Source of the DNA: a virus
Lineage: Duplodnaviria; Caudoviricetes
IMG/VR virus record: IMGVR_UViG_3300043431_000358
Coordinates: 1 to 59,650 of that record
Length of the DNA stretch: 59,650 bases
Direction: 5' to 3' (one strand)
In this document: positions 4,112-41,635 of the stretch, one piece after another
How the letters are laid out: each line of letters starts with the position of its first letter
Position numbering within the stretch: position 1 is the first letter of the stretch
The notes under the pieces: model-generated
What the model was told of the DNA's origin: nothing
Seen by the model: the letters and a program-made list of their open reading frames with translations, nothing else
Databases searched by the model: none
Position numbers and translations under genes: made by a program

Positions 4112-4812
4112 CAATCCTGGCGAAGACGAAGGGCAAGCGCGGCGAGATCTACGTCTACGAGGCAATCGGGGACGGGTGGGTCGGCGGCATCACGGCCAAG
4201 TCTTTTGCCGACACGCTGGCGAAGCTGAGGGACGTGACGGCGCTGGACATCTACATCAACAGCCCGGGGGGCGGGGTGTTCGATGGCATCGCGATTTACA
4301 ACCAGATCCGCCGCTGGGACCGCGGGGAACGCATCGTGCACATCGACGGCATCGCGGCCTCGATCGCCAGCGTGATCGCCATGGCCGGCGACGAGATCCG
4401 CATCGCGGCCAATGGCCAGGTGATGATCCACGAGCCGTGGGGCATGGCCTACGGCACGGCCGACGACATGCGCAAGAGCGCCGAAAGCCTGGACGGTGTG
4501 CACGAGACCATCCTCGACACGTATGTTTCGCGCACGAAGGGTGATCGCAAGGATCTGGACAAGCTCATGCGGGCGGAAACCTGGATGCTGGCCGACGAGG
4601 CGGTGCGCCGCGGCTTCGCCACCAGCAAGACCGAGGAGAAGACGCCCGAGATGGAACCGGCGGCCATGGCGGCCACGATGGCGCTGCTGGACAAGTACCG
4701 CAACACGCCGGCCAACTTGCGCGCCACGTCAGTGGCCGCCAACGCCAAAGTGGCGCGGATGTCAATGCGCGTGCAACAATTGCGCGCGGGGGCCAGCCCC
4801 CGGAACGCGTAA
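4108..4812 (+). CDS. ClpP-like head maturation protease
   Basis: INSPGG.VFDG.AIYN, DGIAASIASVI, MIHEPW, AETWM; lies between portal and capsid. Confidence 0.93.
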   Translation: MTILAKTKGKRGEIYVYEAIGDGWVGGITAKSFADTLAKLRDVTALDIYINSPGGGVFDGIAIYNQIRRWDRGERIVHIDGIAASIASVIAMAGDEIRIAANGQVMIHEPWGMAYGTADDMRKSAESLDGVHETILDTYVSRTKGDRKDLDKLMRAETWMLADEAVRRGFATSKTEEKTPEMEPAAMAATMALLDKYRNTPANLRATSVAANAKVARMSMRVQQLRAGASPRNA

Positions 4813-4854
4813 CGGCCAGCCGGACGCCAACCTACCCACCGAAAGGAATCGGCA

Positions 4855-6336
4855 ATGCGTACGAACCTCCACCTGGCCCTAACCGCCACCGCCGTTGCGC
4901 TGTGCCTGGGCTTTCCCATCAACGCCGGCAGGACCGATCAGCGGCTGCCGGTCATCCGCGCCGACGGCGTGCAGATGGAACACCTCCAGGCCCGGCTCGC
5001 CGAACTGGACAGCTCGGCAAAAAACATCATTGCGTTCGCCGAGAGCGAGAAGCGGTCCCTCAACGGCGACGAGGTCAAGGAACTCGACAAGATCTACGCC
5101 GCGTTCGAGGAGGTGGACGCCGAAATCAAGGTCCGCGAGCGCGCCGCCAACATGTCGGCCCGCGCCGCTGGCGGCGGCGGCCGGCAGACCAATCCGGACC
5201 TGACGCCCACGCAAGTGGCTGCTGCTGCCGGTGACGATGTGCCGGCCGCAACCCAGCAAAGCCCGGCCCTGGCCCGGCGCGTGGCCGCCAGCGCGCGGTC
5301 GACCGACACCGGCAAGTGGGGCTTCCGTTCGCCGGGCGAGTTCATCGTCGCGGTGTTCCGCGCCTCGGCCCGCGGCGCCAGCCCCGACCCGCGCCTGATC
5401 GCAAATGCGCCCACCACCTATGGGCAGGAGGGCGTGGGTGCCGATGGCGGCTTCGCGGTGCCGCCCGATTTCCGCGCGACCATCATCAAGAAGGTGGCCG
5501 GCGAAGAGTCGCTGCTGTCGATGACCGACCAGCAGACCACCAGCAGCAACAACATCACGTTCCCCGTCGACGAGACGGAGCCATGGGGCACTTCGGGCGT
5601 GCGCGTCTACTGGGAAAGCGAGGGCGGGCAGAAGACCCAGAGCAAGCCGCGCCTGGCCGAGTCCACCGTCAAGGCGAACAAGCTCATCGCGCTGGTGCCA
5701 ATGACCGACGAGCTGCTGGACGACGCCCCGGCGATGACCTCGTGGCTGAACACCAAGGTGCCCGAGCACATCGACTACGCCGTCAACGCCGCCATCATCC
5801 GCGGCAGCGGCGTGGGCCAGCCGCTGGGCATGCTCAACAGCGCGGGCCTGCTGACGGTGGCGGCTGAGAGCGGCCAGGCCGCTGACACGCTGCGCTTCGA
5901 GAACATCGTGAACCTCTACACCCGCATGCCGGCGAGCAGCAAGCGCCGGGCCGTGTGGCTGATGAACGAGGACAACGAGGCCCAACTGATGAAGATGCAG
6001 TTCCCCGGCACGGGCACGGCCGTCCCGGTGTACCTGCCGCCCGGCGGCTTGTCCGCTGCTCCCTACGGCACGTTGATGGGCCGGCCGGTTATTCCCATGG
6101 AAGCCATGTCCGCCCTCGGCGATGTGGGTGACATCGTCTTCGCCGACATGTCCAAGTACATGACCTTGGTGAAGGGCGGGCTGAAGCAGGACATCTCCAT
6201 CCACCTGTGGTTCGACTACGACATCACGGCCTTCCGCTTCGTGCTGCGAGTCGGCGGAAAGCCCTGGTTCAACAGCGTGATCACCCGCGCGAACGGCCTG
6301 TCGCGTTCGTTCTTCGTCACGCTCGGCGCGCGCTGA
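4855..6336 (+). CDS. Major capsid protein (HK97 fold)
   Basis: Coiled-coil delta-domain-like N-terminus, GADGGFAVPPDF, ELLDD, G.G.GQPLG, LMGRPV motifs. Confidence 0.95.
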   Translation: MRTNLHLALTATAVALCLGFPINAGRTDQRLPVIRADGVQMEHLQARLAELDSSAKNIIAFAESEKRSLNGDEVKELDKIYAAFEEVDAEIKVRERAANMSARAAGGGGRQTNPDLTPTQVAAAAGDDVPAATQQSPALARRVAASARSTDTGKWGFRSPGEFIVAVFRASARGASPDPRLIANAPTTYGQEGVGADGGFAVPPDFRATIIKKVAGEESLLSMTDQQTTSSNNITFPVDETEPWGTSGVRVYWESEGGQKTQSKPRLAESTVKANKLIALVPMTDELLDDAPAMTSWLNTKVPEHIDYAVNAAIIRGSGVGQPLGMLNSAGLLTVAAESGQAADTLRFENIVNLYTRMPASSKRRAVWLMNEDNEAQLMKMQFPGTGTAVPVYLPPGGLSAAPYGTLMGRPVIPMEAMSALGDVGDIVFADMSKYMTLVKGGLKQDISIHLWFDYDITAFRFVLRVGGKPWFNSVITRANGLSRSFFVTLGAR

Positions 6337-6393
6337 TCACCCAGTGCCGCGGGGCAGCCCGCGGCCGGCTCACCCTCTTCGAAAGGAACTGAC

Positions 6394-6846
6394 ATGCAAC
6401 CGAACCAAACGCCCAGCGAGCAAAGCGCTGTGCTGGCGTGCATCGACCCGGACGCCTACACGGCGGCCACCTACACCACCGGCTGGGTGGCCCTGGGCGA
6501 GTGGGACTACGTGCAGGCCATCATCATGGCTGGCGCCCTGGGTTCCAGTGCCACGCTCGACGCCAAGCTCACGGCCGCATCGGACAGCAGCGGCACCGGG
6601 CCGACTGACGTGACGGGCGCGGCCATCACCCAGCTTACCCAGGCCGGGACCGACTCTAACAAGCAGGCGCTGATCAACCTGCGCATGGACTCGCTGGCCG
6701 GCCTGGGCTTCACGCACTTGCGGCTGAGCATGACCGTGGGCACGGCCACGTCGGACGCTGGCGCGCTGCTGCTGGGCTTCGGCGCCAAGTACGCACCGGC
6801 CAGCAACAGTGATGCCACCACGGTCGACAGCATCACGACGGTGTGA
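6394..6846 (+). CDS. Putative head decoration/capsid-associated protein
   Basis: Directly after capsid, strong RBS (gaaaggaa), Thr/Ala-rich; function inferred from position. Confidence 0.55.
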   Translation: MQPNQTPSEQSAVLACIDPDAYTAATYTTGWVALGEWDYVQAIIMAGALGSSATLDAKLTAASDSSGTGPTDVTGAAITQLTQAGTDSNKQALINLRMDSLAGLGFTHLRLSMTVGTATSDAGALLLGFGAKYAPASNSDATTVDSITTV

Positions 6847-6848
6847 CC

Positions 6849-7265
6849 ATGACGGCGCCGCCCAGCAGCACCAAGACGATCCGCTTCACTGAGGCGGCCG
6901 AAGTGGACTACCTTGACGGCGCCGGCCTGCGCAAGTACGCCGAGGGGTCCACGCACACGATGCGGTCCGACAAGGCGGACCGGTGGATCCGGCGCTCCAA
7001 GGCCGTGGACGTCACGTTGCGGGAGACCGTGGACGTGGCGGGCCCAGCGGTGCTGCGCCAGCCGGGCGACGAGCCGCGCGCACCGGCCGCTCCGGCCGCG
7101 GCACCGGCCGCTCCGGTCACAGCAGGCGGCGCGATGGCGTCGGGAGTACCCCAGCATGGCAACACCGTGGCGAGTGCCCCTGCTGTGGCCGGGGCGGACG
7201 GTGGCGGTGATGGCCAGCGGGCCGTCAATGTCGGCGACCGTGGCCGAGGCGGTTCGCGCGAGTGA
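6849..7265 (+). CDS. Hypothetical protein
   Basis: Fills the gap after the decoration gene, Ala/Pro-rich tail. Confidence 0.55.
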   Translation: MTAPPSSTKTIRFTEAAEVDYLDGAGLRKYAEGSTHTMRSDKADRWIRRSKAVDVTLRETVDVAGPAVLRQPGDEPRAPAAPAAAPAAPVTAGGAMASGVPQHGNTVASAPAVAGADGGGDGQRAVNVGDRGRGGSRE

Positions 7266-7815
7266 CCTGCCGTCGATCGCGGTCAACGACACGCACCGCT
7301 TAGCCCCCTGGGCGGCGGTGCTCTACGCAGCGGATTCATCCTGGTGGGCGCACCACGCAGCCGAAGCGCTGCACTTCCCCGGCATCAAGGCCACGGCCAA
7401 CGACAGCGTGCCGTATCGCGCGGTGCACCTGCTGCGCCCAACCGGCATCGAAGGCTTCGACCCCGACCCAGGCTGCCTGCGCACCGGTGGGAACGGCGGC
7501 TACCAAGCGCTGCACCTGGCCGTGCATGCTGGCGCCACCCGCATCCTCCTGTTCGGATTCGACCTGGACGACAGCGCCGGCCGGCACTGGCACGGCAGCC
7601 ACCCCGAGCCACTCACCAACACCGCCACGGGCGTGTTCGCGATCTGGCGATCCCGCTTCGCCACTCTGGTGGAGCCCCTGCGCGCGCGGGGTGTGCAGGT
7701 GGTCAACTGTGCGCCACAATCGGCGCTCCACTGTTGGCCGCTGGCCGACCCTTTCGAAACTCTCGCAGGAGCGCGAACTTGCCCGACGTCATCAACATCA
7801 CCGCCCGTGGCCTGA
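7156..7815 (+). CDS. Maf/DUF115-like (sialyltransferase-fold) putative glycosyltransferase
   Basis: VAVMASGPSM, IAVND, LYAAD..WW, GGNGGYQALHLA..AGA.RILLFGFD, VVNC motifs; ATG at 7156 chosen within the 6913 ORF. Confidence 0.7.
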   Translation: MATPWRVPLLWPGRTVAVMASGPSMSATVAEAVRASDLPSIAVNDTHRLAPWAAVLYAADSSWWAHHAAEALHFPGIKATANDSVPYRAVHLLRPTGIEGFDPDPGCLRTGGNGGYQALHLAVHAGATRILLFGFDLDDSAGRHWHGSHPEPLTNTATGVFAIWRSRFATLVEPLRARGVQVVNCAPQSALHCWPLADPFETLAGARTCPTSSTSPPVA

Positions 7816-8072
7816 GCAAGGCCAGTCACATGGCCAAGGAACTGGCCGAGATCGAATCCGCACTGGACACGCCACCCGAATACCGCAAGGACATTGCCGC
7901 GCTTGTCGGTCTGGACGGCTACAAAGTGTCTGTGCCGTGGTCACTGGTCCAGCAGGAGCTGCAGGAGAAGCGGGCCAAGCTGCACCTGGCGCTGCAGGAG
8001 ATGGGCATCCACCTGCTGCCGCCCGAACCCAAAGAGGCGCCGGCATTGGTCCCAATCTGCCCGTCCCTGTAA
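7779..8072 (+). CDS. Hypothetical protein
   Basis: TTG start with aggag RBS; fills gap between neighbours. Confidence 0.5.
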   Translation: MPDVINITARGLSKASHMAKELAEIESALDTPPEYRKDIAALVGLDGYKVSVPWSLVQQELQEKRAKLHLALQEMGIHLLPPEPKEAPALVPICPSL

Positions 8073-8077
8073 CGTCT

Positions 8078-8887
8078 ATGCGCGCGCTGTGCGTGCTCCG
8101 CGCCGCCCCGGTCTACCGGCGCGACGCCGTCTTCCAGGGCCTGCGAGCGGCCGGCTACGAGGTGCACACCAAGATGATGCCGCATCTGTGCGCCAGCGAC
8201 ATCATCGTGTCCTGGAACCGGTACGGCGTGCCGGACCAGCAGGCCCACATGATCGAGCGGGCCGGCGGCCGGGCCGTCATCATGGAGAACGGCTACCTCG
8301 GCAAGGAACTGGCCGGGGACAGTTGGTATGCCCTGTCGGTCGGCCACCATGCCGGGCGCGGGTCCTGGCCTGGAAGCGGCGAGCCGGCCGGCCACTGGAG
8401 CATGGCCACCGGTGCCGGTGCGGCTGCGCGGTGGGACGACCTGGCCATCCCGCTGGCCCCCTGGCGCGAGCCTGGCGGGGAGACCATCGTGCTGCACCAG
8501 CGCGGCATCGGCGAGCACGGCATTGCCTCGCCGCACCGGTGGGCCGAGGACCTGACCCCGCGCATCAAGGGCGCGCGCATGCGGGCGCACCCGGGCGCGG
8601 GCAACACCACCGACCTGGAGCACGACGTGCGCAAGGCCTCGGAGGTGATCACCTGGGCCAGCGGGGCCGCGCTGCGCTGCCTGGTGATGGGGATTCCGGT
8701 TTGGTACGCGATGCCAGGGTGGATCGGCGCGCCGGCCTCTCTGCCGCTCCAGGAGCGCGCGCGCGGGGTGCTGCCGCTGCGCGACGATGCCGCCCGACTG
8801 GGCATGCTGCGCCGGCTGGCCTGGGCCCAGTGGCGCCTTTCGGAGATCGAGAGTGGACACGCTTTCCGCACCCTCCTCGGCGTCTGA
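8078..8887 (+). CDS. Capsular-polysaccharide-synthesis (KpsC/KpsS-like, GT-B) putative glycosyltransferase
   Basis: MENGYL, RAHP, ITWASGAAL..LVMGIPV, LAWAQW..SEI.SG motifs. Confidence 0.65.
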   Translation: MRALCVLRAAPVYRRDAVFQGLRAAGYEVHTKMMPHLCASDIIVSWNRYGVPDQQAHMIERAGGRAVIMENGYLGKELAGDSWYALSVGHHAGRGSWPGSGEPAGHWSMATGAGAAARWDDLAIPLAPWREPGGETIVLHQRGIGEHGIASPHRWAEDLTPRIKGARMRAHPGAGNTTDLEHDVRKASEVITWASGAALRCLVMGIPVWYAMPGWIGAPASLPLQERARGVLPLRDDAARLGMLRRLAWAQWRLSEIESGHAFRTLLGV

Positions 8888-9395
8888 GGCCTTCGAGGCC
8901 CTGCACGTGCGGCCTGAGCCGGGCCGCGTGCTGATCGTCGGCTCGCGGGTCTACGGCAGCCGAGAGGACCGCCGCACCCGGCACGCGCAGGCGGTGGGCG
9001 TGGACATGTTGCCTGGCCCTGGCGTCGATGCCGTCATCGACATGGAGACGCCCGCGGCGCTGGCGCTGGGAGTGTTCTCGCACATCGAATGCGTCGCGGT
9101 GCTGGAGCACAGCCGGCGCCCGTGGCTGCTGGCCGCCAACCTGGAGCGCATGCTGCTGCCGGGCGGCACCATCCACCTGACGGTGCCATTCGTCTGGCGG
9201 GTGCACGCCTACCCGCATGACTACTGGCGGTTCACGCTGGACGGCGTGCGCCAGCTCCTGCCAGGCGTGGCCTGGGAAGCCCTGGTCTACGCCCACGTCT
9301 TCGAGACCCCCAAGAACCACCTTCCCCGCACGACGGTGGACGGGTTCCCCTACTTCGCCCGCACCGAGGTGTGCGGATTCGGCCGACTGGCCTAA
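8853..9395 (+). CDS. Class I SAM-dependent methyltransferase
   Basis: VLIVGS, GVDMLPGPGVD, VLEH...PW, LLPGG, VHAYPHDYWRFT. Confidence 0.8.
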   Translation: MDTLSAPSSASEAFEALHVRPEPGRVLIVGSRVYGSREDRRTRHAQAVGVDMLPGPGVDAVIDMETPAALALGVFSHIECVAVLEHSRRPWLLAANLERMLLPGGTIHLTVPFVWRVHAYPHDYWRFTLDGVRQLLPGVAWEALVYAHVFETPKNHLPRTTVDGFPYFARTEVCGFGRLA

Positions 9396-9411
9396 ACATT
9401 GAAAGTGATGC

Positions 9412-10635
9412 ATGAAAGCTACTCTTGATCTAGTTCGTCGCCTGAGGGACACGACGGGAATAAAAGTGAACCGGTCATTCGGAGGATTCTTTGCCGACCG
9501 GCTGGTGCAGGCTCTCAGCAGACCAACGCTGATTGATGCCATTGAGCACCTTGCGCAATCGCTTGATGCCGGCACTGAGTTCATTGGAGGAAAGAAGATT
9601 GCACCGTTCTTGCAGGAAGCAAGCGGGCCCATGGCGCCGGCTATTCTTCACTGGATGCGCGAGCACCCCGCAGTAGTGGCCATGATCGCCAGCCTGAAAG
9701 ACGAAGAAGATTACGCTTCTGCCATCGGCTCGATACCTCTGGACGCGGCAGCGGTTGACGACGACAGCGTAGTCACTGCGCATCCGTCATACGACGTGAC
9801 TTTGGTGGTGAACGTGTTGGGCGGGCTGGCGCACGGGAGCGACAGGAAAGCGGGTAATGCCACTCTGTACAGGCGCCGCAGCGTGATCACAGAGACAGGC
9901 AAGCACATGGCATTGCCAATCTACGCAGGAAACGCCCTGCGCGGACAAATGCGCGACTTGCTCTCTGACCACTTTCTGCGCGCCATCGGTTTGACCGCAA
10001 GCAGGAGTCAACCGGCTGTATCACTTTGGGCATTCCACACGCTGTACGCAGGCGGTGTGCTTGAGGCGAACGCGAAGGTAGACAAGGAGCTTGGCAACGC
10101 TGGCGCAGTCCGGGCTGACGCCATCAGAGACCTGCGGAATTACATCCCAATGCTTTCGCTACTTGGGACTGCGATTGGAAACAGGATCATCTGCGGACGC
10201 ATACAAGTTGGCGACCTTAGACCGCGTTGCGTCGAATGGGGGACAGGAACGGTGCGTGCCGACTCTCTTATTGAATGGACTTTCCTCACAAGGCGCGACG
10301 ACTACGAAGGCCGCCAAGAGGGCGAAGACCATGCAGGCATGATCGCCACCAGCGAGGTCCTCAAAGGCGGAACGGTGCTTGACGGAGGCATCGACATAGA
10401 TGGCCATGCCAATAGCATGGAAAGGTCTTGCCTGGCTCGCGGCCTGTCACTGATGATTGAGCGTGGCATGCTGGGTGCAGAAAACAGGCGAGGCATCGGC
10501 AAGGTGACCATCGAGGTAAAAGGTCTGCCAGACCCAGCGGAGTACGACGAACACCTGTCCACGCATGCCGCCGAGATCACCGATTACCTCCGCCGTCTTG
10601 GAGCACTGAGTGCGCAGCCTCCTATTGCTGGCTGA
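9412..10635 (+). CDS. csf2: Type IV CRISPR backbone protein Csf2 (Cas7 group RAMP) with N-terminal helical, probably Cas11-like, domain
   Basis: From residue ~127: LAHG, PIYAGNALRGQMRD, LYAGG.L, PMLSLLG, GRIQVGDL.P, FLTRRDD, EVLKGGT and G-rich loop GAENRRGIGKV. Confidence 0.85.
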   Translation: MKATLDLVRRLRDTTGIKVNRSFGGFFADRLVQALSRPTLIDAIEHLAQSLDAGTEFIGGKKIAPFLQEASGPMAPAILHWMREHPAVVAMIASLKDEEDYASAIGSIPLDAAAVDDDSVVTAHPSYDVTLVVNVLGGLAHGSDRKAGNATLYRRRSVITETGKHMALPIYAGNALRGQMRDLLSDHFLRAIGLTASRSQPAVSLWAFHTLYAGGVLEANAKVDKELGNAGAVRADAIRDLRNYIPMLSLLGTAIGNRIICGRIQVGDLRPRCVEWGTGTVRADSLIEWTFLTRRDDYEGRQEGEDHAGMIATSEVLKGGTVLDGGIDIDGHANSMERSCLARGLSLMIERGMLGAENRRGIGKVTIEVKGLPDPAEYDEHLSTHAAEITDYLRRLGALSAQPPIAG

Positions 10636-11395
10636 CGCATTCGAAGCCGGCGTCGAATGGCGCGCTGAGCCTCTCCCGGAAGACCCTCAGCCTGGGGTTT
10701 GCTGCCTGCTTGGAGAGGTTCTACCGACCATCTCCAAGCGGCACCTTCTCACGGCCAGCTTCACAGATTCGAACATGCTTCAGCGGCCCGACAGCGACCG
10801 CGTGAGCGTTGCGGCCTGGACGGCTTTCACGGCTGGAGAGTTGCGCGATGGGAAAAGCCGCAGGTACTGCCCGGAACGGATGAGTAGCTGGCGCTGCACC
10901 GCAAACCGTTTCGAGGCCCTCAGCCGGCAGGGCGTGCGCGATGCGGTGTTCGGAGAACCACCCGGCAGCGCCTGGGCTGGCTACGCCACCACCAGCTACA
11001 AGAAGCATGGGAGCCTCCGCGCGCCTGTCAATGACGGTACGGGGAACGTGTGGCTATGGGAGACACGCCTTGTGGACTGTAGTGACCGGACCGAATTGCG
11101 CGTCATGTGGGAAAAGATGCGCGGCTACCAGGATGCAGGCATTCCACGACCAGTTCTTGAGACCGGAGAATTGGACGCATACCTTGTCGCAAAGATCGGT
11201 ATTCCTACGGCGATGCAGTACCAGAAGTGGTCGGCGCCGCTGGTCTGGTCTGCCGTCTACCAGTTCGTCGTCTACCTATTGCCTTCAAAGGAAGAACTGA
11301 TTGAGCAAAATACAGAGCAACCGCCTGCTGTGGGAACTGCACGCCAAGACCTCCGGGCACCAGCGCAGGGTGAAACACCTGATCTCTTCGATTGA
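10610..11395 (+). CDS. csf1: Csf1-like (Cas8-like large subunit of type IV)
   Basis: Position between csf2 and cysH-like/csf3; GVCCLLG...SFTD...PDSDRVS and KKH.....PVN motifs as in Csf1; divergent. Confidence 0.65.
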   Translation: MRSLLLLADAFEAGVEWRAEPLPEDPQPGVCCLLGEVLPTISKRHLLTASFTDSNMLQRPDSDRVSVAAWTAFTAGELRDGKSRRYCPERMSSWRCTANRFEALSRQGVRDAVFGEPPGSAWAGYATTSYKKHGSLRAPVNDGTGNVWLWETRLVDCSDRTELRVMWEKMRGYQDAGIPRPVLETGELDAYLVAKIGIPTAMQYQKWSAPLVWSAVYQFVVYLLPSKEELIEQNTEQPPAVGTARQDLRAPAQGETPDLFD

Positions 11396-12032
11396 GGCCG
11401 TCCCGGCGGACAATGCCTACGTGAGTTTCAGTGCAGGGAAGGACTCCGCGGTCTTGGCGCACGCTGCGAACGTCGTATACCCTGGTATTCAGATATGGAT
11501 GGTTGACCCCGGCATCCCAACGCACTGGACAGAAGAAGAGCAAGACAAGTGGCTTGAGTACGCATCCTCAATGCGGTGGTCGTTGCGGGTGTTCCCGTGG
11601 GACAAGTGGGCGGAAGTCGGAGAAGCTGCCAGCGAGAAGGACCACAGAAAAAAAGCGCATGACTCAATGTTCGAGGAAATGCACAAACAAGCTCACGAAG
11701 AGTCCAGAACGCACGTCCTGATGGGGCTGCGGGCGCAGGAGAGCCACGGCCGGAGGTTCTCCCTCGCGACGCACGGAGAAGCGCACACCAGCCGTAGCGG
11801 CACCACGCGTCACTGCCCATTGGGTCTTTGGACCCATGACGACATTTGGGCGTACACGATCACGCACGGTCTGCCATGGTTGACGATCTATGATCACCTG
11901 GGACCAGAGGCTAGGAACGGCCTCATCGGCAGGAGCGGCGTTCAGCAGGGCCGCATGGCTTACCTTCGTCGCTACTTCCCTGATGCCTACCGGCACGCAC
12001 GCGACGTACTTGGATTGGATTACGCGCAATGA
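11301..12032 (+). CDS. cysH: CysH-like PAPS-reductase-family (PP-loop) protein, type IV-B accessory
   Basis: PP-loop YVSFSAGKDS, MGLRAQES, CPLGLWTHDDIWAY; TTG start with aaggaag RBS. Confidence 0.85.
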   Translation: MSKIQSNRLLWELHAKTSGHQRRVKHLISSIEAVPADNAYVSFSAGKDSAVLAHAANVVYPGIQIWMVDPGIPTHWTEEEQDKWLEYASSMRWSLRVFPWDKWAEVGEAASEKDHRKKAHDSMFEEMHKQAHEESRTHVLMGLRAQESHGRRFSLATHGEAHTSRSGTTRHCPLGLWTHDDIWAYTITHGLPWLTIYDHLGPEARNGLIGRSGVQQGRMAYLRRYFPDAYRHARDVLGLDYAQ

Positions 12033-12709
12033 GTCACCTCAAGATCACTTTCCACCTGGACGGCAGCGGCGTCTACTTTGACCCAAACGAGCCGACGACG
12101 CTGGACGGGTTGCTTTGCTGGGTGTTGGCGCCAAAGCAGGGATTCCGACACCTCGACCGCAGCGAGGTTCCAGGCAATGTTCAACTCCCGCTCATGCGCA
12201 CAGCTCTTGGTAGCACGTTCATCTGGAACGCATCCGCGCTCTTCCCGGATGGGCCATCTGGAGAGGGGCTGTGGTTCTGGCGGAAACGCATGCGTCAGTC
12301 ACGGATCCACCTCACAACTGGGTCACCAAACACTACCAACGGCACCTACCGTGATTGGCAGACACCGCTGCCACTGACCCTGTGCCTACGCATGGTCGCC
12401 TACGCGAGCGGGAATGGATGTGACGTCAGGCGGCTGCTGAGAGAGGTCAGATACATCGGTAAGAAGGCCGCGCACGGACACGGGAAGGTCATCAAAACAG
12501 AGGTTGAGCACTGCGAGAAAGACAACAGCCTGACCATGGACGGCCTTGCCACCAGGTGGTTGCCGCAAGCGGGTGGCCCCAGGCTGGTACGTCCGCGCCC
12601 GCCATACTGGCACCCGCACGGGCGCATTGAGTGCTGCGATATTGGCAGCGCGTGGCCTCCCACACGCGCACCATCTATTCCAACTGAGGGGCAGGTTTGC
12701 GCATCCTGA
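12029..12709 (+). CDS. csf3: Csf3 (Cas5 group RAMP) of type IV CRISPR-Cas
   Basis: LKITFHL, LDGLL, LPL, WNAS, G-rich loop IGKKAAHGHGKV, terminal RPPYWHP. Confidence 0.85.
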   Translation: MSHLKITFHLDGSGVYFDPNEPTTLDGLLCWVLAPKQGFRHLDRSEVPGNVQLPLMRTALGSTFIWNASALFPDGPSGEGLWFWRKRMRQSRIHLTTGSPNTTNGTYRDWQTPLPLTLCLRMVAYASGNGCDVRRLLREVRYIGKKAAHGHGKVIKTEVEHCEKDNSLTMDGLATRWLPQAGGPRLVRPRPPYWHPHGRIECCDIGSAWPPTRAPSIPTEGQVCAS

Positions 12710-13560
12710 TCACCGGCAAGGGCACCAGCGGCTCCTGGAAGATCCGCGGCGAGCAGTTGGGCGCGGCCATTGGCGCCACGGTGGTGGCCCAGGCCAGCCG
12801 GGCCGTGATCGAAGCGCACGACCTGGTGGTGCTGGTCAAGCGCGGTCCGGAGGACCTGGTGCGCCGGATCCGCGAGTCTGGGAAGCCGCTGGTGTGGGAC
12901 GTGGTGGACGCGTGGCCCCAGCCGGCCGGCAGCCATTGGGCGCGGCCGGCCTGCCTGCAGTGGCTGCGGCAGCGACTCAACGAACTGCGGCCCGCGGCGT
13001 GCGTGGCGGCCACACCGGTGATGGAGGCGGACATTGAGGCCGAGCGGGTGCCAGCGCTGTGCGTTTGGCACCATGCCAAGCCGGGCCAGGCCATCAACCC
13101 CATTCGCGAGTGCCTGGCCACCATCGGCTACGAGGGCAGCGAGGCCCACCTGGGCGGGTGGGTGCAGCACCTGGAGGCCGCCGCACGCCGCGCTGGCATC
13201 CGCTTCGTCATGCTCCCGCCTCGGCTGGCCGACGTGGACATCGTGGTGGCGCTGCGCGACCAGGCCGGCCACGCGGCGCGGCACTGGAAGTCGAACGTGA
13301 AGCTGGCCAATGCCCAGGGCTCCGGCACGCCCATCATCATGGGGGCTGAATCCGCCTACTTGGCGACGGTAAGCGGCGCCGAAGCAATCGTGTCAAGCCG
13401 GGACGACCTGGACGAAGCCATCGAACTGATGCGGCCCGTGGCCGTGCGGCGCGCCGCGGCAGAAGCCATGCTTGCTGCCGCCCCCAGCCTTGCCACCTGC
13501 GCCGCGGCCTACCGCGACTTCCTCACCTCGGTGCTGGCCCAGCGGGCTGGCCGCCGGTAA
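12697..13560 (+). CDS. Putative glycosyltransferase (GT-B-like)
   Basis: GSWKIRGEQL, VWDVVD, HH, IGYEG, WKSNVKLANA..SGTP.I motifs; TTG start overlapping csf3. Confidence 0.6.
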   Translation: MRILITGKGTSGSWKIRGEQLGAAIGATVVAQASRAVIEAHDLVVLVKRGPEDLVRRIRESGKPLVWDVVDAWPQPAGSHWARPACLQWLRQRLNELRPAACVAATPVMEADIEAERVPALCVWHHAKPGQAINPIRECLATIGYEGSEAHLGGWVQHLEAAARRAGIRFVMLPPRLADVDIVVALRDQAGHAARHWKSNVKLANAQGSGTPIIMGAESAYLATVSGAEAIVSSRDDLDEAIELMRPVAVRRAAAEAMLAAAPSLATCAAAYRDFLTSVLAQRAGRR

Positions 13561-13574
13561 CCGGAGCATCACCG

Positions 13575-14096
13575 ATGCGAATCAACGTTGGGTGTGGTCG
13601 CCACGTCCTGGAGGGGTGGGTGAACGTGGACGTGGAGCGCTCGCCCAAGGCAGAGCGGGCGCCCGAGATCCTGGCCAGCGCGGTGGCGATCCCTCTGGCG
13701 GGTGGCTGCGCGGACGAGGTGATGGCCATCCACCTCCTGGAGCACTTCTGCCGGTGGGAGGTGGCGGCCGTGCTGGCCGAGTGGCGCCGGCTGCTGAAGC
13801 CTGGCGGCCTGCTGGTGCTGGAGATGCCGGACATCCTCAAGTGCGCCCGCAACCTGATCAAGCTGGCCGCCGCTGGCGCCGATGCCCACCAGATCGACAG
13901 CCAGGCCATGTGGGGCCTGTACGGCGACCCCGGCACGCGCAACCCGCTCATGTGCCACCGGTGGGGCTGGCACCCGGCGACCCTGCAGGCCGAACTGCAC
14001 GCGGCCGGCTTCACCGACATGGTGTGGACGCCGACGCAGTGGCATGCGGCCGGCCGGGCCCACCGTGACATGCGCGTCGAAGCGCGGAGGCCCTGA
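13575..14096 (+). CDS. Class I SAM-dependent methyltransferase (Methyltransf_11-like)
   Basis: INVGCG, GWVNVD, HLLEH, EW.RLLKPGG.L.LEMPD. Confidence 0.85.
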   Translation: MRINVGCGRHVLEGWVNVDVERSPKAERAPEILASAVAIPLAGGCADEVMAIHLLEHFCRWEVAAVLAEWRRLLKPGGLLVLEMPDILKCARNLIKLAAAGADAHQIDSQAMWGLYGDPGTRNPLMCHRWGWHPATLQAELHAAGFTDMVWTPTQWHAAGRAHRDMRVEARRP

Positions 14097-14097
14097 G

Positions 14098-14871
14098 ATG
14101 CGCGCCGAGATCCTCATCGCCCAGCCGCTGTCGAGCCGCGGCGAGAAGATGCTGCGCGCGCTGGCCCGCACCTCGCCGCCCGGCAGCGTGCTCACCAGCA
14201 GTTATGCCGGCCAGTGCGAGTTGCTGGTGATCTACGGGCCCGGCGCACCGGTGCGACTGCAGCAGGCCGCCCAGCACCGCGCCGGCGGCGGTCGGGTGGT
14301 GATGTGGGACCTGGGCTACTGGGACCGGGAGGCCACCATGCGGCTGTCGGTGGACACGCTGCACCCCACCGCGGCGCAGCTCGAGCTTGCGCCCGAAATC
14401 CACCGCGCCACGTTCGGCCTGCGCGAAGACGCCGACCCGGCCGGGCCCATCATGCTGGTGGGCCTCGGGCCGAAATCGTGCGTTGCCTACGGCTACGCGC
14501 CGATGCAGTGGGAGCAGGGCCGCCTGGATGCGCTGCGCGCGCGCTTCCCGGGCCGGGAGATCCTCTGGCGACCCAAGGGGGACAAGCCAACGCTGCTGCG
14601 CGGCACCACGCTGCGCCACGGCATGCCAATCCACGAGGCGCTGTCCGGCTGCAGCCTGGTGGTCTGCCGGCACAGCAACGTGGCCGTGGACGCCTGCATC
14701 GCCGGGGTGCCAGTCGAGTGCGAGGATGGGGCCGCCCTGGCCCTATATCATGGCAACCCGGAGCCCACGCTGGAGCAGCGCGCACGTTTCCTGCAGCGGC
14801 TGTCGTGGTTCAACTGGGGATTCAATGAGGCTCAGGCATGTTGGAACTGGATCGCTCAGCTGACCAGGTAA
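14098..14871 (+). CDS. Second KpsC/KpsS-like putative glycosyltransferase
   Basis: WDLGYW, WRPK, HSNVAVDACIAGVPV, R..FLQRLSWFNW...E; parallels 8078-8887. Confidence 0.6.
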   Translation: MRAEILIAQPLSSRGEKMLRALARTSPPGSVLTSSYAGQCELLVIYGPGAPVRLQQAAQHRAGGGRVVMWDLGYWDREATMRLSVDTLHPTAAQLELAPEIHRATFGLREDADPAGPIMLVGLGPKSCVAYGYAPMQWEQGRLDALRARFPGREILWRPKGDKPTLLRGTTLRHGMPIHEALSGCSLVVCRHSNVAVDACIAGVPVECEDGAALALYHGNPEPTLEQRARFLQRLSWFNWGFNEAQACWNWIAQLTR

Positions 14872-15575
14872 CCCGGGTCTACATCGGCCACGACCCGCGG
14901 TCCCAACTGGCCTACGAAGTGGCCGAGCATTCCCTCCGGCGGCATGCCAGCGGGCCCGTCTCGGTGACCGCCCTGCGCGCCGACGTGCTGGCGGCCCAGG
15001 GCCTGCTGCGCCGGCCCACCGATGCCCGCGGCGGCACGCTCTACGACCTCCCCAGCAACGCGCCCTGCAGCACCGAGTTCGCGATCTCTCGCTTTATGGT
15101 GCCGCTGCTGGCCCAGCACGGATGGGCACTGTTCGTGGACTGCGATGTGGTGTTCATGGCCGACGTGGCCGAGGTGCTGGCCTGCCGCAACCCAGACGTT
15201 GCCGTGCAGGCGGTGCACCACAACCACGTGCCTCGGCTGGCCACCAAGATGTGCGGGGCGGCGCAAACACGCTACCCGCGTAAAAACTGGAGCAGCGTCA
15301 TGCTCTGGAACTGCAACCACCCGGCAAACCGGCGCCTCTCGCTGGACGACATCAACAACCGGCCCGGGCGCGACCTGCACGCCCTGTACTGGCTGGCAGA
15401 CAGCGAGGTCGGCTACCTGCCTCCGGTGTGCAACTGGTTGGTGGGCGAGCAGCCTGCGCCGTCACGCCCGGTGGTGGCCCACTTCACCAATGGCGGGCCC
15501 TGGCTGGACGGCTGGTCGCCCGCTGATCACGACGACATCTGGCACCGCGCCCGCGCGGAGATGGGTACCCCATGA
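14838..15575 (+). CDS. GT-A fold glycosyltransferase (GT8-like nucleotide-diphospho-sugar transferase)
   Basis: YIGHDPR, STEFAISRF.VP, DxD motif FVDCD, YPRKNWSSVMLWN, HFTNGGPW. Confidence 0.85.
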   Translation: MLELDRSADQVTRVYIGHDPRSQLAYEVAEHSLRRHASGPVSVTALRADVLAAQGLLRRPTDARGGTLYDLPSNAPCSTEFAISRFMVPLLAQHGWALFVDCDVVFMADVAEVLACRNPDVAVQAVHHNHVPRLATKMCGAAQTRYPRKNWSSVMLWNCNHPANRRLSLDDINNRPGRDLHALYWLADSEVGYLPPVCNWLVGEQPAPSRPVVAHFTNGGPWLDGWSPADHDDIWHRARAEMGTP

Positions 15576-16219
15576 GCGTCACCGTCATCCGCCCCCCGGC
15601 GTTCGAGCCCATCAGCCTGGAGCAGGCCCGCCAGCACCTGCGTGTTGACGTCTACCCGGGCAGCCCGGGCGGGCACCCCGACGACGACCTGATCATGCGC
15701 GCGATCGTGGCCGCCCGCGAGCGGGCCGAGGAGATCACCCGGCGCGCGCTGGTGGAGCAGGGCCTGCGCATGGTGGCGCCGGATTGGTACGTGGAGGGCT
15801 GGCGGCGGACGGCCCGGCATGGCATCGACCTGCTGCGCCCCCCGCTCATCAGCGTGGATCAGGTCAGCTACTACGACGACGCCAACGTCCTGCAGGTGGT
15901 GGACCCGTCGAACTACTTCGTCGAGGACACTCAGCCCGTTCAGCGTCTGCGCTGGGCCAGCAGCTTCGCCTACCCCTGCGCCTACGTGCGAGCGGACGCG
16001 GTGCGCGTGGACTACACCGCCGGATACGCGGGCCAGGCAAGCCCGGTCATCGACCAGGAGGGGGCCGCCAGCGGCATCCCGGCCAGCATCATCAACGGCA
16101 TGCTGCTCCTCATCGGCGACATGTACGAGCACCGCGAGGCCACGATTGTTGGCTCGATCAGCACGGTGCTGGCCGCGGCCGATGCGCTGTTCGAGAGCAA
16201 GCGAATCCACAACTTCTGA
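15572..16219 (+). CDS. Head-tail connector protein
   Basis: EPISLEQARQHLRVD..DDDLI, YTAGY, LLLIGDMYEHRE. Confidence 0.9.
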   Translation: MSVTVIRPPAFEPISLEQARQHLRVDVYPGSPGGHPDDDLIMRAIVAARERAEEITRRALVEQGLRMVAPDWYVEGWRRTARHGIDLLRPPLISVDQVSYYDDANVLQVVDPSNYFVEDTQPVQRLRWASSFAYPCAYVRADAVRVDYTAGYAGQASPVIDQEGAASGIPASIINGMLLLIGDMYEHREATIVGSISTVLAAADALFESKRIHNF

Positions 16220-16223
16220 GGCC

Positions 16224-16838
16224 ATGCTGCACACCCAGGTGGCGCCGCGGTGGCGCGGCCGGCTGGTGGTGGTGGCGGCCACCGGGGCGGGTCTCACGCC
16301 AGAGGTTGCGGCCGCATGCGCCGGCGTGCCCACCATCGCTGTCTCAGACGCCTACCGACTCATGCCCGCGGCGGAGGTGCTCTACAGTTGCGACGCCCGC
16401 TGGTGGGACCACCACCGGCCCCAGTTCGCCGGAGAGAAGTGGAGCACCCACCAGGTGGGCCGCAACGACAAGCGCGGCGCGGCCGATCGGCACGGCCTTC
16501 ACCTTGTGCCGGGCGCGCCGGGCCAGGTGTTCCGCACCGATGGCACCATCGCCTACGGCTCCAACAGCGGGTTCCAGGCGATCGGCCTGGCAATCCTGTT
16601 CGGCGCGGCGCGCATCGTGCTGGTTGGGTTCAACCTCGGCGGCCCGCACTTCTTCGGCGCCCACCCGCGGCCGCTGGTCAACAGCAACTGCCGCCAGTTC
16701 CTACCGCACTTCCAGGCCGCGGCCAAGCGCATGCCGGCCGGCGTGGAGATCGTGAACGCCACGCCGCGCAGCGCGCTCGACTGCTGGCCCATGGTGCCGC
16801 TGGCTGCCGCGCTGGCGTGGCCGGCGGCGCCGGGTTGA
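16224..16838 (+). CDS. Second Maf/DUF115-like putative glycosyltransferase
   Basis: VVAATGAGL, IAVSD, LYSCD..WW, GSNSGFQAIGLA..FGA.RIVLVGF, IVNATP.SAL.CWP; paralogous to 7156-7815. Confidence 0.7.
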   Translation: MLHTQVAPRWRGRLVVVAATGAGLTPEVAAACAGVPTIAVSDAYRLMPAAEVLYSCDARWWDHHRPQFAGEKWSTHQVGRNDKRGAADRHGLHLVPGAPGQVFRTDGTIAYGSNSGFQAIGLAILFGAARIVLVGFNLGGPHFFGAHPRPLVNSNCRQFLPHFQAAAKRMPAGVEIVNATPRSALDCWPMVPLAAALAWPAAPG

Positions 16839-16849
16839 ACTGCGTCACA

Positions 16850-17029
16850 ATGCCGGCCATGGACCCAGGCAAGAAGCGGCGGCAGTGCAACACCTGCGCG
16901 CAGGTGCGCAAGCGGCTGCCGAAGCCCATCCGGGAAGCCCTGGAACGTGTCGAGGAAAGGATGATCAGTGCGAGCGGGACAACTGCGCCACAGGCTGACC
17001 CTCCAGCGCCGCGCCGACACCAAAAGTAA
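16850..17029 (+). CDS. Small hypothetical protein (CxxC)
   Basis: 59-aa ORF filling gap before the head-closure gene. Confidence 0.35.
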   Translation: MPAMDPGKKRRQCNTCAQVRKRLPKPIREALERVEERMISASGTTAPQADPPAPRRHQK

Positions 17030-29209: not shown

Positions 29210-29260
29210 CGGTTGTAATGCCGTTTTAGTGAACTACTCTGAAAAGTGAAAGAGGATCGA

Positions 29261-29404
29261 ATGCTGACATCGATACTTACCAACGTGGTAGTGGCGCTGG
29301 TTGCAGGTGCTTGGGTTGCTTACCGTGTGAGGCCTCAAGGCCAGTCTATGGTTGGGACATTCAAGGTCTTGATCATGGGGCCGCAGCCAACCGTCCCAAA
29401 GTGA
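29261..29404 (+). CDS. Small single-TM membrane protein (47 aa, below the ORF-track cutoff)
   Basis: MLTSILTNVVVALVAGAWVAYRVRP...; gagga RBS; stop overlaps next GTG. Confidence 0.5.
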   Translation: MLTSILTNVVVALVAGAWVAYRVRPQGQSMVGTFKVLIMGPQPTVPK

Positions 29405-41199: not shown

Positions 41200-41308
41200 G
41201 GTCTTCCGAGGTGGATGTGGTGCCGCACGGCCTTGGCCAGCGCGGAGAGGATGGAGTGCCCGCTGGCGCGCAGGCCGAGGAATGTAAGCACGAATGGCTT
41301 GGCGATTC

Positions 41309-41635
41309 TCATAGCGCGGGCTCAGGCGGCACGTCGTCTGCAAACCAGCAGTTGGCCATGCGCTCGACGGTGGGCCAGCAACCAGGCGTCTGCAGGCAGG
41401 CGAACTGCTTGTCGTCGCTGTATCCGATGATCTGCCGCCACATGAACGACCGGTGCTGGTCGCTCTCTACGTCGCAGTGCGCGCCGGACACGAGAACCAG
41501 CGAGCGCACTTCCGGCATCTTGTCGCCGTCTCGGTACGGGCGCTTGGCTAGCCGGCCTATGACGGCCTCACGCGCTTTCGCGCCGGTTGCTTGTGCTGTC
41601 GCGCCCTGCGGCGCATTGGTCGGGTGTTCAGACAC
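41309..41635 (-). CDS. Hypothetical protein, first gene of leftward operon
   Basis: GTG start with aagga RBS. Confidence 0.55.
   Translation of the reverse strand: MSEHPTNAPQGATAQATGAKAREAVIGRLAKRPYRDGDKMPEVRSLVLVSGAHCDVESDQHRSFMWRQIIGYSDDKQFACLQTPGCWPTVERMANCWFADDVPPEPAL

What the first reader, a model, noticed from the sequence alone, without database searches (positions are those of the whole stretch)
9412..12709. Phage-encoded, array-less type IV-B-like CRISPR-Cas effector cassette
Seen: four overlapping genes with RAMP signatures (Csf2: PIYAGNALRGQMRD, GAENRRGIGKV; Csf3: IGKKAAHGHGKV, RPPYW), a Csf1-like gene and a PP-loop CysH-like gene; visibly more A/T at third codon positions than the flanks, with sharp edges. 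Established: csf1/csf2/csf3 plus cas11 and cysH-like, without cas6, dinG, adaptation genes or array, defines subtype IV-B, whose function is unresolved. Inference: a recently acquired module that could sequester host crRNAs (anti-CRISPR), use a non-CRISPR guide, or direct the CysH-like enzyme to a nucleic-acid target. No array is visible anywhere in this apparently complete genome.
Basis: partly seen in the sequence, partly recalled or inferred. Interest (0 to 1): 0.92.

Follow-up and report, generated by a model that had tools for sequence, protein, structure and literature searches.

The report
Phage type IV-B cassette, fused Cas11-Cas7
A freshwater phage carries a recently inserted four-gene, array-less type IV-B-like CRISPR-Cas module in which the small subunit Cas11 is fused to the backbone protein Cas7, one member of a phage-borne family that may help to work out what type IV-B systems do.

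Summary
Window 9412-12709 holds four co-oriented, overlapping genes. They encode a 407-aa Cas7/Csf2, a Csf1, a PAPS-reductase-like PP-loop enzyme with no conserved cysteine, and a Csf3/Cas5. Their GC3 is 0.63-0.72 against 0.84-0.93 in the flanks.

The record is a 59.65-kb tailed-phage contig. I found no array, Cas1, Cas2, Cas6 or DinG in it.

New here:
- Residues 1-125 of the "Csf2" are a fused Cas11 domain, so the "missing" cas11 is present.
- Sibling phage contigs at 83-91% nucleotide identity lack exactly 9394-12699 and have about 237 bp there instead.
- The fused clade has 35 distinct loci, mostly IMG/VR phage contigs across several phyla, often inside the terminase/portal/head module.
- The enzyme gene between csf1 and csf3 is a swappable slot. 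It holds a CysH-like gene, an IbrA/IbrB-like PAPS-reductase plus ParB pair, radical SAM, or a DNA methylase. Its similarity does not track Cas7.

Most likely this is a late-expressed ribonucleoprotein platform for a nucleic-acid-modifying enzyme. That mechanism is inferred, not shown.

Type IV-B on prophages and phages is already in print. I did not find the fusion or the slot in print. I class it as a new variant of a known kind.

The parts
9394..12699 (+). Inserted accessory segment (3306 bp) that is absent from sibling phages
   Evidence: blastn: window 8078-9393 matches L049:7790-9105 at 83.8% identity, and window 12700-17337 matches L049:9343-13971 at 88.8%. L068 shows the same break. The sibling has about 237 bp with a small ORF in this place. 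GC3 drops inside the segment.
9412..9786 (+). Cas11-like small-subunit domain (residues 1 to about 125) fused to Cas7
   Evidence: The domain is all-helical: 8 helices, pLDDT 82.9 when folded alone. A 23-sequence profile hits 11fs_N 'Cas11c' at E 4.9e-5. The best of 48,161 chains in VIA-align is 7jhy_h of the type IV-B complex (Z 7.3, rmsd 3.3, 98 residues aligned); the next is 8fcj_J of a type I-B Cascade at Z 4.8. The domain is conserved across 74 homologues.
9787..10635 (+). Cas7/Csf2 RAMP backbone domain (residues about 126-407)
   Evidence: PADLOC typeIV_Cas7, E 8.8e-39, residues 127-395. Foldseek: 7xg0_E (IV-A Csf2) E 8e-10, 7jhy_a (IV-B) E 3.3e-9 with TMt 0.69, and Csm3 chains. Residues 141-151 form a conserved loop with D144 nearly invariant and pLDDT below 50.
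10610..11395 (+). Csf1-like large subunit
   Evidence: PADLOC Csf1_0_IV, E 2e-7. 25 of 25 family members hit it, best E 4.4e-16. C31 is invariant. There was no PDB match by sequence or profile.
11301..12032 (+). CysH-like PP-loop enzyme (PAPS reductase family, no conserved cysteine)
   Evidence: Pfam PAPS_reduct, E 3.2e-13. A family profile hits PAPS reductase 6vpu_A at E 7.5e-22. S44, G46, K47 and S49 of the PP-loop are invariant in the 24 aligned sequences, as are E147, S148 and R151. D48 is conserved in at least 70% of 28. No cysteine column reaches 50%.
12029..12709 (+). Csf3 (Cas5) subunit
   Evidence: PADLOC typeIV_Cas5, E 2.3e-30. TIGR03116, E 3.9e-17, below its cut-off. A family profile hits 7xfz_B Csf3 at E 1.5e-15 over residues 5-205. 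Its stop codon lies inside the 5' end of the next gene, where homology to the sibling phage resumes.

Best explanation
What it is. Window 9394-12699 is a 3.3-kb accessory insertion in the late (head) gene block of a freshwater tailed phage. It encodes a complete but array-less type IV-B-like effector module with four proteins:
- a Cas11-Cas7 fusion as backbone,
- Csf1 as large subunit,
- Csf3 as the Cas5-like cap,
- a CysH-like PP-loop ATP-using enzyme that lacks the catalytic cysteine of true PAPS reductases.

How it most likely works (inferred).
1. The genes are read through with the late operon.
2. The fusion protein polymerises on an RNA that does not come from a cognate CRISPR array. Each subunit brings its own Cas11, so the Cas7:Cas11 ratio is fixed at 1:1. 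Csf3 and Csf1 cap one end.
3. The ribonucleoprotein serves as a platform that brings the slot enzyme to a nucleic acid, which it modifies through adenylate chemistry.
4. The phage gains a counter-defence or competition advantage.

Shown: the gene identities, the fusion, the insertion polymorphism, the phage context and the swappable enzyme slot. Inferred: RNA binding, the enzyme's association with the complex, the substrate, and the benefit to the phage. My confidence in the identity is about 0.9, and in the platform mechanism about 0.35; the single figure given for this field (0.5) is a compromise between the two.
For: Identity: (details under the observation check and parts).

Fusion.
- The profile of the N-terminal domain hits Cas11c of the solved type IV-C complex at E 4.9e-5 (the entry is linked to the Cell Rep 2026 paper).
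- The top structural match of 48,161 chains is the 143-aa chain h of the IV-B complex 7JHY, Z 7.3, which is 2.5 above the next row. That next row comes from a Cascade entry.
- The listed 120 best of 355 homologues cover 86-100% of the query and are 372-567 aa long.
- Of 8 short hits to the domain that I inspected, 4 run on into the Cas7 domain and none is clearly a free-standing Cas11.

Accessory and recent: sibling contigs lack the segment, there were 0 cassette hits in 81 related loci covering 946 kb, and GC3 is low.

Functional conservation: 35 distinct loci of the fused clade, counting the window, keep intact genes over a GC range of 0.32-0.66.

Enzyme platform.
- Slot content across the 35 loci: 16 are cas7-csf1-cysH-csf3; 4 have the same genes in another order; 4 have only a PAPS_reduct+DUF3440 protein plus a ParB_N protein; 6 have both kinds of PAPS enzyme; 1 is partial; 2 have a radical SAM enzyme and no PAPS enzyme; 2 are cut by the contig end. 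L022 also carries an N6_N4 DNA methylase.
- Similarity to the window's Cas7 tracks Csf1 (Spearman 0.63) and Csf3 (0.79) but not the CysH-like protein (-0.16, p 0.45) over 24 loci.

Late expression.
- The gap upstream of the cassette is 16 nt and the overlap downstream is 13 nt.
- Only one promoter-like site (10391-10418, inside cas7) was found in 4000-17000, no more than the 1.1 expected by chance, and no + strand terminator-like site lies between 6306 and 17000.
- In relatives the cassette is co-oriented with, and often lies between, terminase, portal and head genes.
Against: - No experiment or RNA data bear on assembly, guide, substrate or phenotype.
- There is no intergenic space for a guide RNA next to the cassette in the window, and no conserved adjacent non-coding element was seen.
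- The helical-bundle match at Z 7.3 is, by the tool's own note, within the range that common helical arrangements can reach. Foldseek gave no significant hit for the domain. That chain 7jhy_h is Cas11 is my inference from its length and from the paper's description.
- The NCBIfam equivalog cut-offs for Csf2 and Csf3 are not reached: 28.5 of 130 bits and 62.6 of 140 bits.
- Nearness to packaging genes was not tested against chance. Only loci whose neighbours fell into 9 scanned clusters were annotated.
- The correlation uses related, non-independent loci.
- PP-loop enzymes also make small molecules, so a nucleic-acid substrate is only one possibility.
Confidence: 0.5

Rival explanations
1. crRNA sponge (anti-CRISPR). 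The complex loads host crRNAs made by the host's own Cas6. This withdraws them from the host effectors and so protects the phage.
For: - The cassette has all backbone parts but no array, Cas6 or adaptation genes.
- Pinilla-Redondo et al. raised the idea for IV-B, and themselves called it unlikely (PMC7038947, passages).
- The solved type IV-C complex recruits crRNAs from other arrays in the genome (PMC13676074, passages).
Against: - It does not explain the near-constant enzyme slot or its swapping.
- The genes sit in the late block, too late to protect incoming DNA in the same infection.
- The clade spans hosts of GC 0.32-0.66 and several phyla, which is hard to reconcile with recognition of one repeat type.
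- The JS623 IV-B complex took up few crRNAs when they were co-expressed (PMC7937560, passages).
Confidence: 0.12
2. RNA-guided binding and silencing, as in type IV-A. The complex uses a guide encoded elsewhere (a host array, or a phage RNA) to bind DNA or RNA of competing elements or host genes. It then blocks them or, through the conserved Asp loop, cuts target RNA.
For: - The Cas7 domain is closest in fold to IV-A and IV-B Csf2 and to Csm3.
- The disordered loop 141-151 with near-invariant D144 is in the same general place as the 'catalytic loop' with Asp42 that Zhou et al. discuss. The residue correspondence is my inference.
- Type IV-A acts by transcriptional repression (PMC11656645, passages).
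Against: - There is no helicase: DinG gave 0 matches.
- No guide source was found in the window or beside 46 related loci.
- The enzyme slot remains unexplained.
- Zhou et al. note steric clashes for target binding in the IV-B backbone.
Confidence: 0.15
3. Signal generator. On binding a nucleic acid, the complex activates the PP-loop enzyme to make a nucleotide-derived small molecule, which then acts on host or phage effectors.
For: - The type IV-C paper's introduction says CasCysH has been proposed to AMPylate substrates or to produce second messengers (PMC13676074, passage).
- The PP-loop motif is intact and the catalytic cysteine is missing.
Against: - No candidate receptor or effector gene is conserved next to the cassette. 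Flanks differ between loci.
- The alternative slot contents (ParB_N partner, DNA methylase, radical SAM) look more like nucleic-acid modification than signalling.
Confidence: 0.08
4. Passenger or decaying remnant. The cassette is a selfish or neutral hitch-hiker with no function for this phage.
For: - It is dispensable, since sibling phages lack it.
- Its composition is not yet adjusted to the phage.
- One library protein (P0121) looks like an internally deleted cassette.
Against: - All four reading frames are intact, and the key motifs are conserved with relatives at 40-80% identity.
- The same gene set persists in 35 distinct loci, in many of which the cassette's GC has converged on that of the flanks.
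Confidence: 0.05

Closest known systems
Type IV-B CRISPR-Cas (Mycobacterium sp. JS623 megaplasmid; PDB 7JHY; Zhou et al. 2021, PMC7937560)
   Same: - The gene set is the same: csf1, Cas11, csf2/Cas7, csf3/Cas5, plus an associated cysH-like gene.
- There is no array, Cas6, helicase or adaptation genes (definition from PMC7038947 and PMC8175902, passages).
- The Cas7 fold matches 7jhy_a (E 3.3e-9, TMt 0.69).
- The N-terminal domain's best structural match is 7jhy_h.
   Different: - Here Cas11 is fused to the N-terminus of Cas7. In 7JHY they are separate chains of 143 and 300 aa.
- The gene order is cas11-cas7, csf1, cysH, csf3.
- The carrier is a tailed phage, with the cassette in its late block, not a plasmid.
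- Sequence similarity to JS623 Csf2 is weak (phmmer E 3.6e-4).
- In relatives the enzyme gene is swapped or supplemented, whereas Pinilla-Redondo et al. describe co-diversification of cysH with IV-B.
Type IV-C effector (Pyrococcus abyssi / Thermococcus onnurineus; PDB 11fs, 11hc, 11hd; PMC13676074)
   Same: - These are the best sequence matches in the PDB for both halves of the fusion: Cas7c at E 9.7e-7 and Cas11c at E 4.9e-5.
- In that complex the backbone is built of Cas7-Cas11 pairs (passages), which is the stoichiometry a fusion would fix.
   Different: [quoted passage not shown]
- Here the large subunit is Csf1, and no nuclease domain was found in the four proteins.
Type IV-B of 'Fuxiviridae' archaeal viruses (PMC10848311) and type IV loci noted on prophages and phages (PMC7038947, PMC11656645)
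   Same: These are virus-borne type IV-B modules with a CysH-like gene next to Csf3 and no adaptation genes (passages).
   Different: - The Fuxivirus locus has a separate Cas11 (it is listed among that paper's protein sets) and a mini-array.
- The present clade has a fused Cas11 and no array.
- It infects bacteria of several phyla, going by the titles of the genome records.
IbrA/IbrB-like pairs (PAPS_reduct+DUF3440 with a ParB_N protein) of phages and prophages; the name is recalled, not from a call
   Same: Eleven of the 35 distinct loci carry such a pair inside the cassette, between csf1 and csf3.
   Different: The window itself has only the short CysH-like enzyme, with no DUF3440 and no ParB_N protein.

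Membership tests
Type IV-B CRISPR-Cas | Type IV Cas7 (Csf2) backbone protein | tested here: met
   PADLOC typeIV_Cas7, E 8.8e-39. The model has pLDDT 87.6, and Foldseek's top hits are IV-A and IV-B Csf2.
Type IV-B CRISPR-Cas | Csf3 (Cas5) subunit | tested here: met
   PADLOC typeIV_Cas5, E 2.3e-30. A family profile hits solved Csf3 7xfz_B at E 1.5e-15. No fold was predicted.
Type IV-B CRISPR-Cas | Csf1 small Cas8-like large subunit (not Cas10-like) | tested here: met
   PADLOC Csf1_0_IV, E 2e-7 for the window protein. 25 of 25 family members hit it, best E 4.4e-16. There was no PDB sequence match and no fold was predicted.
Type IV-B CRISPR-Cas | Cas11 small subunit | tested here: met
   It is present as an N-terminal domain of Cas7, not as a separate gene. 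The domain profile hits Cas11c at E 4.9e-5. The top structural match is 7jhy_h at Z 7.3. Foldseek was not significant.
Type IV-B CRISPR-Cas | Associated cysH-like gene (PAPS reductase fold, catalytic cysteine lost) | tested here: met
   Pfam PAPS_reduct, E 3.2e-13. The PP-loop is conserved and no cysteine column reaches 50%. The loss of the cysteine in CasCysH is described in PMC8175902 (passage).
Type IV-B CRISPR-Cas | No DinG/RecD helicase, Cas6 or adaptation genes | tested here: met
   0 matches for TIGR03117 (Csf4), PF01881, PF01867 and PF09827 in the 59,650-base record. The record is about 90% complete. RecD was not searched for.
Type IV-B CRISPR-Cas | No CRISPR array | tested here: met
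   Searches found none in the window. One search found none in the 46 related loci scanned.
Type IV-B CRISPR-Cas | Forms an RNA-containing Csf2/Cas11 filament complex | not testable with these tools
   This needs purification and RNA sequencing or cryo-EM.
NCBIfam equivalogs cas7_csf2 (TIGR03115) and cas5_csf3 (TIGR03116) | Score above the curated cut-off | tested here: not met
   28.5 bits against a cut-off of 130, and 62.6 bits against 140. The proteins are relatives of these families, not members of the narrow equivalogs.
Type IV-C CRISPR-Cas | Cas10-like large subunit with HD domain | tested here: not met
   The large subunit matches Csf1 models only. No Cas10 or HD family appeared for any of the four proteins.
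Type IV-A CRISPR-Cas | DinG helicase, Cas6/Csf5 and array | tested here: not met

The most novel reading that the evidence does not exclude
Phage type IV-B modules are not immunity-like at all. In this reading they are a modular 'RNP plus enzyme' machine that marks nucleic acid during virion assembly. The Cas11-Cas7 filament forms on a phage or host RNA late in infection and positions whichever enzyme occupies the csf1-csf3 slot (CysH-like adenylating enzyme, IbrA/IbrB-like pair, radical SAM, methylase). The enzyme then modifies the phage genome or a co-packaged RNA. That would explain why the cassette repeatedly sits inside terminase, portal and head modules.
Probability: 0.15. Interest if true: 0.9.

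Novelty: new variant of a known kind. Interest (0 to 1): 0.62.

Why it matters
Type IV-B is the one common CRISPR-Cas subtype whose function is still called unknown in reviews up to 2024-2026 (passages).

This cassette is a minimal four-gene version with several useful properties.
- It has a natural presence/absence pair of sibling phages.
- The Cas11-Cas7 fusion fixes the backbone stoichiometry.
- The family of relatives shows that the enzyme gene is an exchangeable part.

Together these give concrete, testable constructs: pull-down and RNA sequencing, enzyme swaps, and cassette transfer into laboratory phages. They also point the search for function towards nucleic-acid modification rather than interference.

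If the module proves to be a counter-defence or a genome-marking device, it would add a new way in which phages reuse Cas proteins.

Tried and rejected
Searches and jobs that gave nothing usable.
- Nucleotide searches of the cassette and of window 1-25000 against the INPHARED phage collection found nothing.
- A single-protein scan of viral contigs found no relatives. The alignment-based scan did.
I could therefore not see the contexts of the closest homologues, P0002-P0006, except L038.
- Complex prediction with Csf1, Csf3 and the CysH-like protein (partner) returned 'no answer', score 0.00. This is no evidence either way.
- Foldseek of the N-terminal domain against the PDB gave no significant hit.
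- The Csf1 protein and its profile gave no PDB match, and the ESM Atlas gave no usable hit.
- No RNA holder was listed among the sequencing runs.
- hhalign of the N-terminal domain profile and of the Csf1 profile against the distant clade in L036 was negative, so that clade's architecture is unresolved.

Ideas considered and dropped.
- A 31-nt spaced repeat downstream of csf3 in L040 is a triple 18-nt operator-like motif before the next gene, not a mini-array.
- I checked whether the short hits to the Cas11-like domain are free-standing Cas11 genes. Of 8 inspected, 4 continue into Cas7, 1 is a deletion chimera and 3 diverge after the domain. There is no clear free-standing form.
- I did not build a Cas7 tree with reference IV-A to IV-E sets, because the reference sequences sit in paper supplements.

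Literature on a Cas11-Cas7 fusion in type IV.
- Searches (7 papers; 8 papers), and the passages read, mention other fusions (csf1-csf3, Cas8-Cas11, Cas11-nuclease) but not this one.
- Moya-Beltran et al. 2021 (PMC8658065) is not held, and supplements were not seen. So the fusion is 'not found', not 'not in print'.

Full report
**The sequence.** Between 9412 and 12709 the + strand carries four ORFs of 407, 261, 243 and 226 aa. They overlap by 26, 95 and 4 nt. The first starts 16 nt after the stop of the upstream gene. The last ends 13 nt inside the next gene. GC per kb is 0.59-0.62 inside against 0.70-0.73 beside it. GC3 of the four genes is 0.63-0.72. The two adjacent genes have 0.88 and 0.89, and flank genes in general 0.84-0.93.

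**The carrier.** The window is a whole IMG/VR virus record of 59,650 bases, classed linear, with 90% CheckV completeness.
- PHROGs identify small terminase subunit (134-739), large terminase subunit (645-2477), portal (2468-4111), head protease (4108-4812) and major head protein (4855-6336).
- They also identify tape measure, tail proteins, RecE/Erf-like recombination genes, helicases and DNA methyltransferases.
- Between the head protein and a weak head-tail-connector match (15572-16219, E 0.0083, below cut-off) lie methyltransferase-like and unassigned genes. The cassette sits among them.
- No tyrosine or serine recombinase was found, so the life style is open.
- DNA holders are freshwater metagenomes.

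**The four proteins.**
- The 407-aa protein matches type IV Cas7 models over residues 127-395 (PADLOC, E 8.8e-39).
- The 261-aa protein matches Csf1 models (E 2e-7). All 25 of 25 aligned relatives do so as well, best E 4.4e-16.
- The 243-aa protein is a PAPS-reductase-family PP-loop enzyme (Pfam E 3.2e-13; family profile against 6vpu_A E 7.5e-22).
- The 226-aa protein matches Csf3 (PADLOC E 2.3e-30; family profile against solved IV-A Csf3 E 1.5e-15).
- The narrow NCBIfam equivalogs are hit only below their cut-offs.
- An AlphaFold model of the 407-aa protein built on 74 homologues is confident (pLDDT 87.6, pTM 0.83). Its Foldseek matches are IV-A Csf2, IV-B Csf2 (7jhy_a, TMt 0.69) and type III Csm3.

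**The 'missing' Cas11.** Residues 1 to about 125 of the 407-aa protein match no Cas7 model. They are conserved in all close homologues and fold into eight helices.
- A 23-sequence profile of this domain hits 'Cas11c' of PDB 11fs/11hc/11hd at E 4.9e-5.
- The Cas7 part's best PDB sequence match is 'Cas7c' of the same entries.
- Their chain names (Cas7c, Cas11c) are the ones used in the 2026 Cell Reports paper on type IV-C complexes, whose backbone is built of Cas7-Cas11 pairs (passages read). That the entries belong to this paper is my inference from these names.
- Folded alone (pLDDT 82.9), the domain's best match among 48,161 representative chains is chain h (143 aa) of the type IV-B complex 7JHY: Z 7.3, rmsd 3.3 over 98 residues. 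The next row is a chain of a type I-B Cascade at Z 4.8.
- Foldseek found nothing significant. Its top, non-significant row was a 108-aa chain of a type I-A Cascade.
- The structural Z is modest for a helical bundle. However, the sequence and fold evidence are independent and agree, so I read the protein as a Cas11-Cas7 fusion.
- A profile search of 1.84 billion representatives found 110 proteins at E up to 0.001. About half are 390-480 aa long, that is, fused. Of eight short ones inspected, four simply run on into Cas7.

**What is absent.** No array, tRNA or Rfam family was found in the record. No Cas1, Cas2, Cas6 or Csf4/DinG was found either. By the published definition this gene content is subtype IV-B: csf1, csf2, csf3, cas11 and cysH-like, with no dinG, cas6 or array (PMC7038947 and PMC8175902, passages).

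**A true insertion.** A 58,042-bp IMG/VR contig (loci L049 and L067) and an 8.3-kb contig (L068) are collinear with the window at 83-91% nucleotide identity. They match up to 9393/9394 and again from 12692/12700. In place of the 3306 bp they have about 237 bp with a small ORF that has a hydrophobic stretch. The stop codon of csf3 lies in the first codons of the downstream gene, where homology resumes. None of the 81 loci related to this phage (946 kb) encodes any of the four proteins. Together with the low GC3, this shows a recent gain.

**A phage-borne family.**
- The Cas7 search gave 355 proteins. The 120 listed cover 86-100% of the query.
- Pattern scans found 36 loci in IMG/VR, of which 33 include the N-terminal domain.
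- They found 10 loci in one-genome-per-species contigs. One is weak, and two are the same contigs as IMG/VR loci.
- The record titles name Rubrivivax, Sulfuriferula, Pedobacter, Anaerolineales, Desulfofustis and others.
- After merging near-identical copies there are 35 distinct fused-clade loci, counting the window.
- Cassette GC runs from 0.32 to 0.66 and mostly follows the flanks.
- Flanking genes are not conserved between loci. Where I annotated neighbour clusters, they are large terminase subunit, portal, small terminase subunit and minor head protein. They are co-oriented with the cassette, which lies between such genes in L010, L016, L018, L025 and L040 as well as in the window.
- I did not test this positional pattern against chance.

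**The enzyme slot.** The three Cas genes keep their order. What lies between csf1 and csf3 varies across the 35 loci:
- 16 loci have one CysH-like gene of about 250 aa.
- 4 loci have the same genes in another order.
- 4 loci have a protein of about 400 aa with PAPS_reduct and DUF3440, plus a ParB_N protein.
- 6 loci have both kinds of PAPS enzyme.
- 1 locus is partial.
- 2 loci have a 450-aa radical SAM enzyme and no PAPS enzyme.
- 2 loci are cut by the contig end.
- L022 also has an N6_N4 DNA methylase.

Similarity to the window's Cas7 goes with that of Csf1 (Spearman 0.63) and Csf3 (0.79) but not with that of the CysH-like protein (-0.16) over 24 loci. The window's enzyme is closest to that of L040 and L029, whose Cas proteins are distant. 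The closest Cas relatives (L038, L039, L002) have very different enzymes. The loci are related to one another, so the p-values are rough.

The enzyme keeps the PP-loop (S44, G46, K47 and S49 invariant in 24 sequences; D48 in at least 70% of 28) together with E147, S148 and R151. It has no conserved cysteine. This agrees with the description of CasCysH by Taylor et al. (PMC8175902, passage).

**How it probably works.**
- Shown: a complete backbone set, an intact PP-loop enzyme, late-block placement without its own detectable promoter or terminator, conservation across many phages, and modular exchange of the enzyme.
- Inferred: the fusion polymerises on RNA as Csf2 does in 7JHY, where the RNA was heterogeneous (PMC7937560, passages). 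Csf3 and Csf1 cap it. The complex presents the enzyme to a nucleic acid for adenylate-type modification. The phage gains in conflicts with host defences or with other elements.
- The disordered, conserved loop 141-151 with D144 may correspond to the putative catalytic loop of Csf2. That is a lead only.
- The rivals are a crRNA sponge, guide-dependent silencing, signal production and a neutral passenger. They are weighed in their own sections.

**Comparison with what is known, and novelty.** Type IV loci on prophages and some phages, and a IV-B in archaeal 'Fuxiviridae', are in print, so a phage-borne IV-B is not new in kind. I did not find three things in the papers and passages I could search: the Cas11-Cas7 fusion, the size and host breadth of this phage clade, and the exchangeable enzyme slot. 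Supplements and Moya-Beltran et al. 2021 were not available to me. I class the finding as a new variant of a known kind and score its interest at 0.62. The function of IV-B is a standing open question and this family offers clean test material. Nothing here yet shows what the system does.

Noticed in passing
window 6843-9395 and 12697-15575: The head-to-connector interval holds a run of accessory-looking genes. They include a weak MptE-like match (6913-7815), a Methyltransf_11 protein (13575-14096) and several proteins with no family. The 287-aa gene at 12697-13560 has relatives in 62 IMG/VR loci.
   Followed up: partly
window 28001-29300: This is the lowest GC of the record (0.507 in 28001-29000). 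It lies in the 3' part of the 1044-aa tail protein gene 26075-29209, whose PHROG matches cover mainly residues 35-594. It may be an exchanged receptor-binding end.
   Followed up: no
window 40563-40747: There are 20.6 copies of a 9-nt tandem repeat inside the - strand ORF 40375-41343. If translated, this gives a tripeptide repeat.
   Followed up: no
L049:9083-9334: In the sibling phage the cassette's place is taken by a small ORF (up to 83 aa) with a hydrophobic stretch.
   Followed up: partly
protein P0121 (148 aa, representative library): This protein joins the Cas11-like domain directly to a Csf3-like C-terminal end. It looks like an internally deleted cassette.
   Followed up: no
L035, L036, L037 (IMG/VR contigs of 11, 90 and 87 kb): These loci hold a second, distant set of type IV-like genes. 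Cas7 is 27-30% identical, and Csf3, ParB_N and PAPS_reduct genes lie nearby. hhalign to the Cas11-like domain and to Csf1 was negative.
   Followed up: partly
L040:13460-13541: There are three copies of an 18-nt motif about 180 nt downstream of csf3 and just before the next gene. It looks like an operator, not an array.
   Followed up: partly
window, whole record: No tyrosine or serine recombinase was found, while RecE-like and Erf-like recombination genes are present. Relatives of the cassette sit in long bacterial contigs (L038, 250 kb; L041, 183 kb), so some carriers may be prophages.
   Followed up: partly
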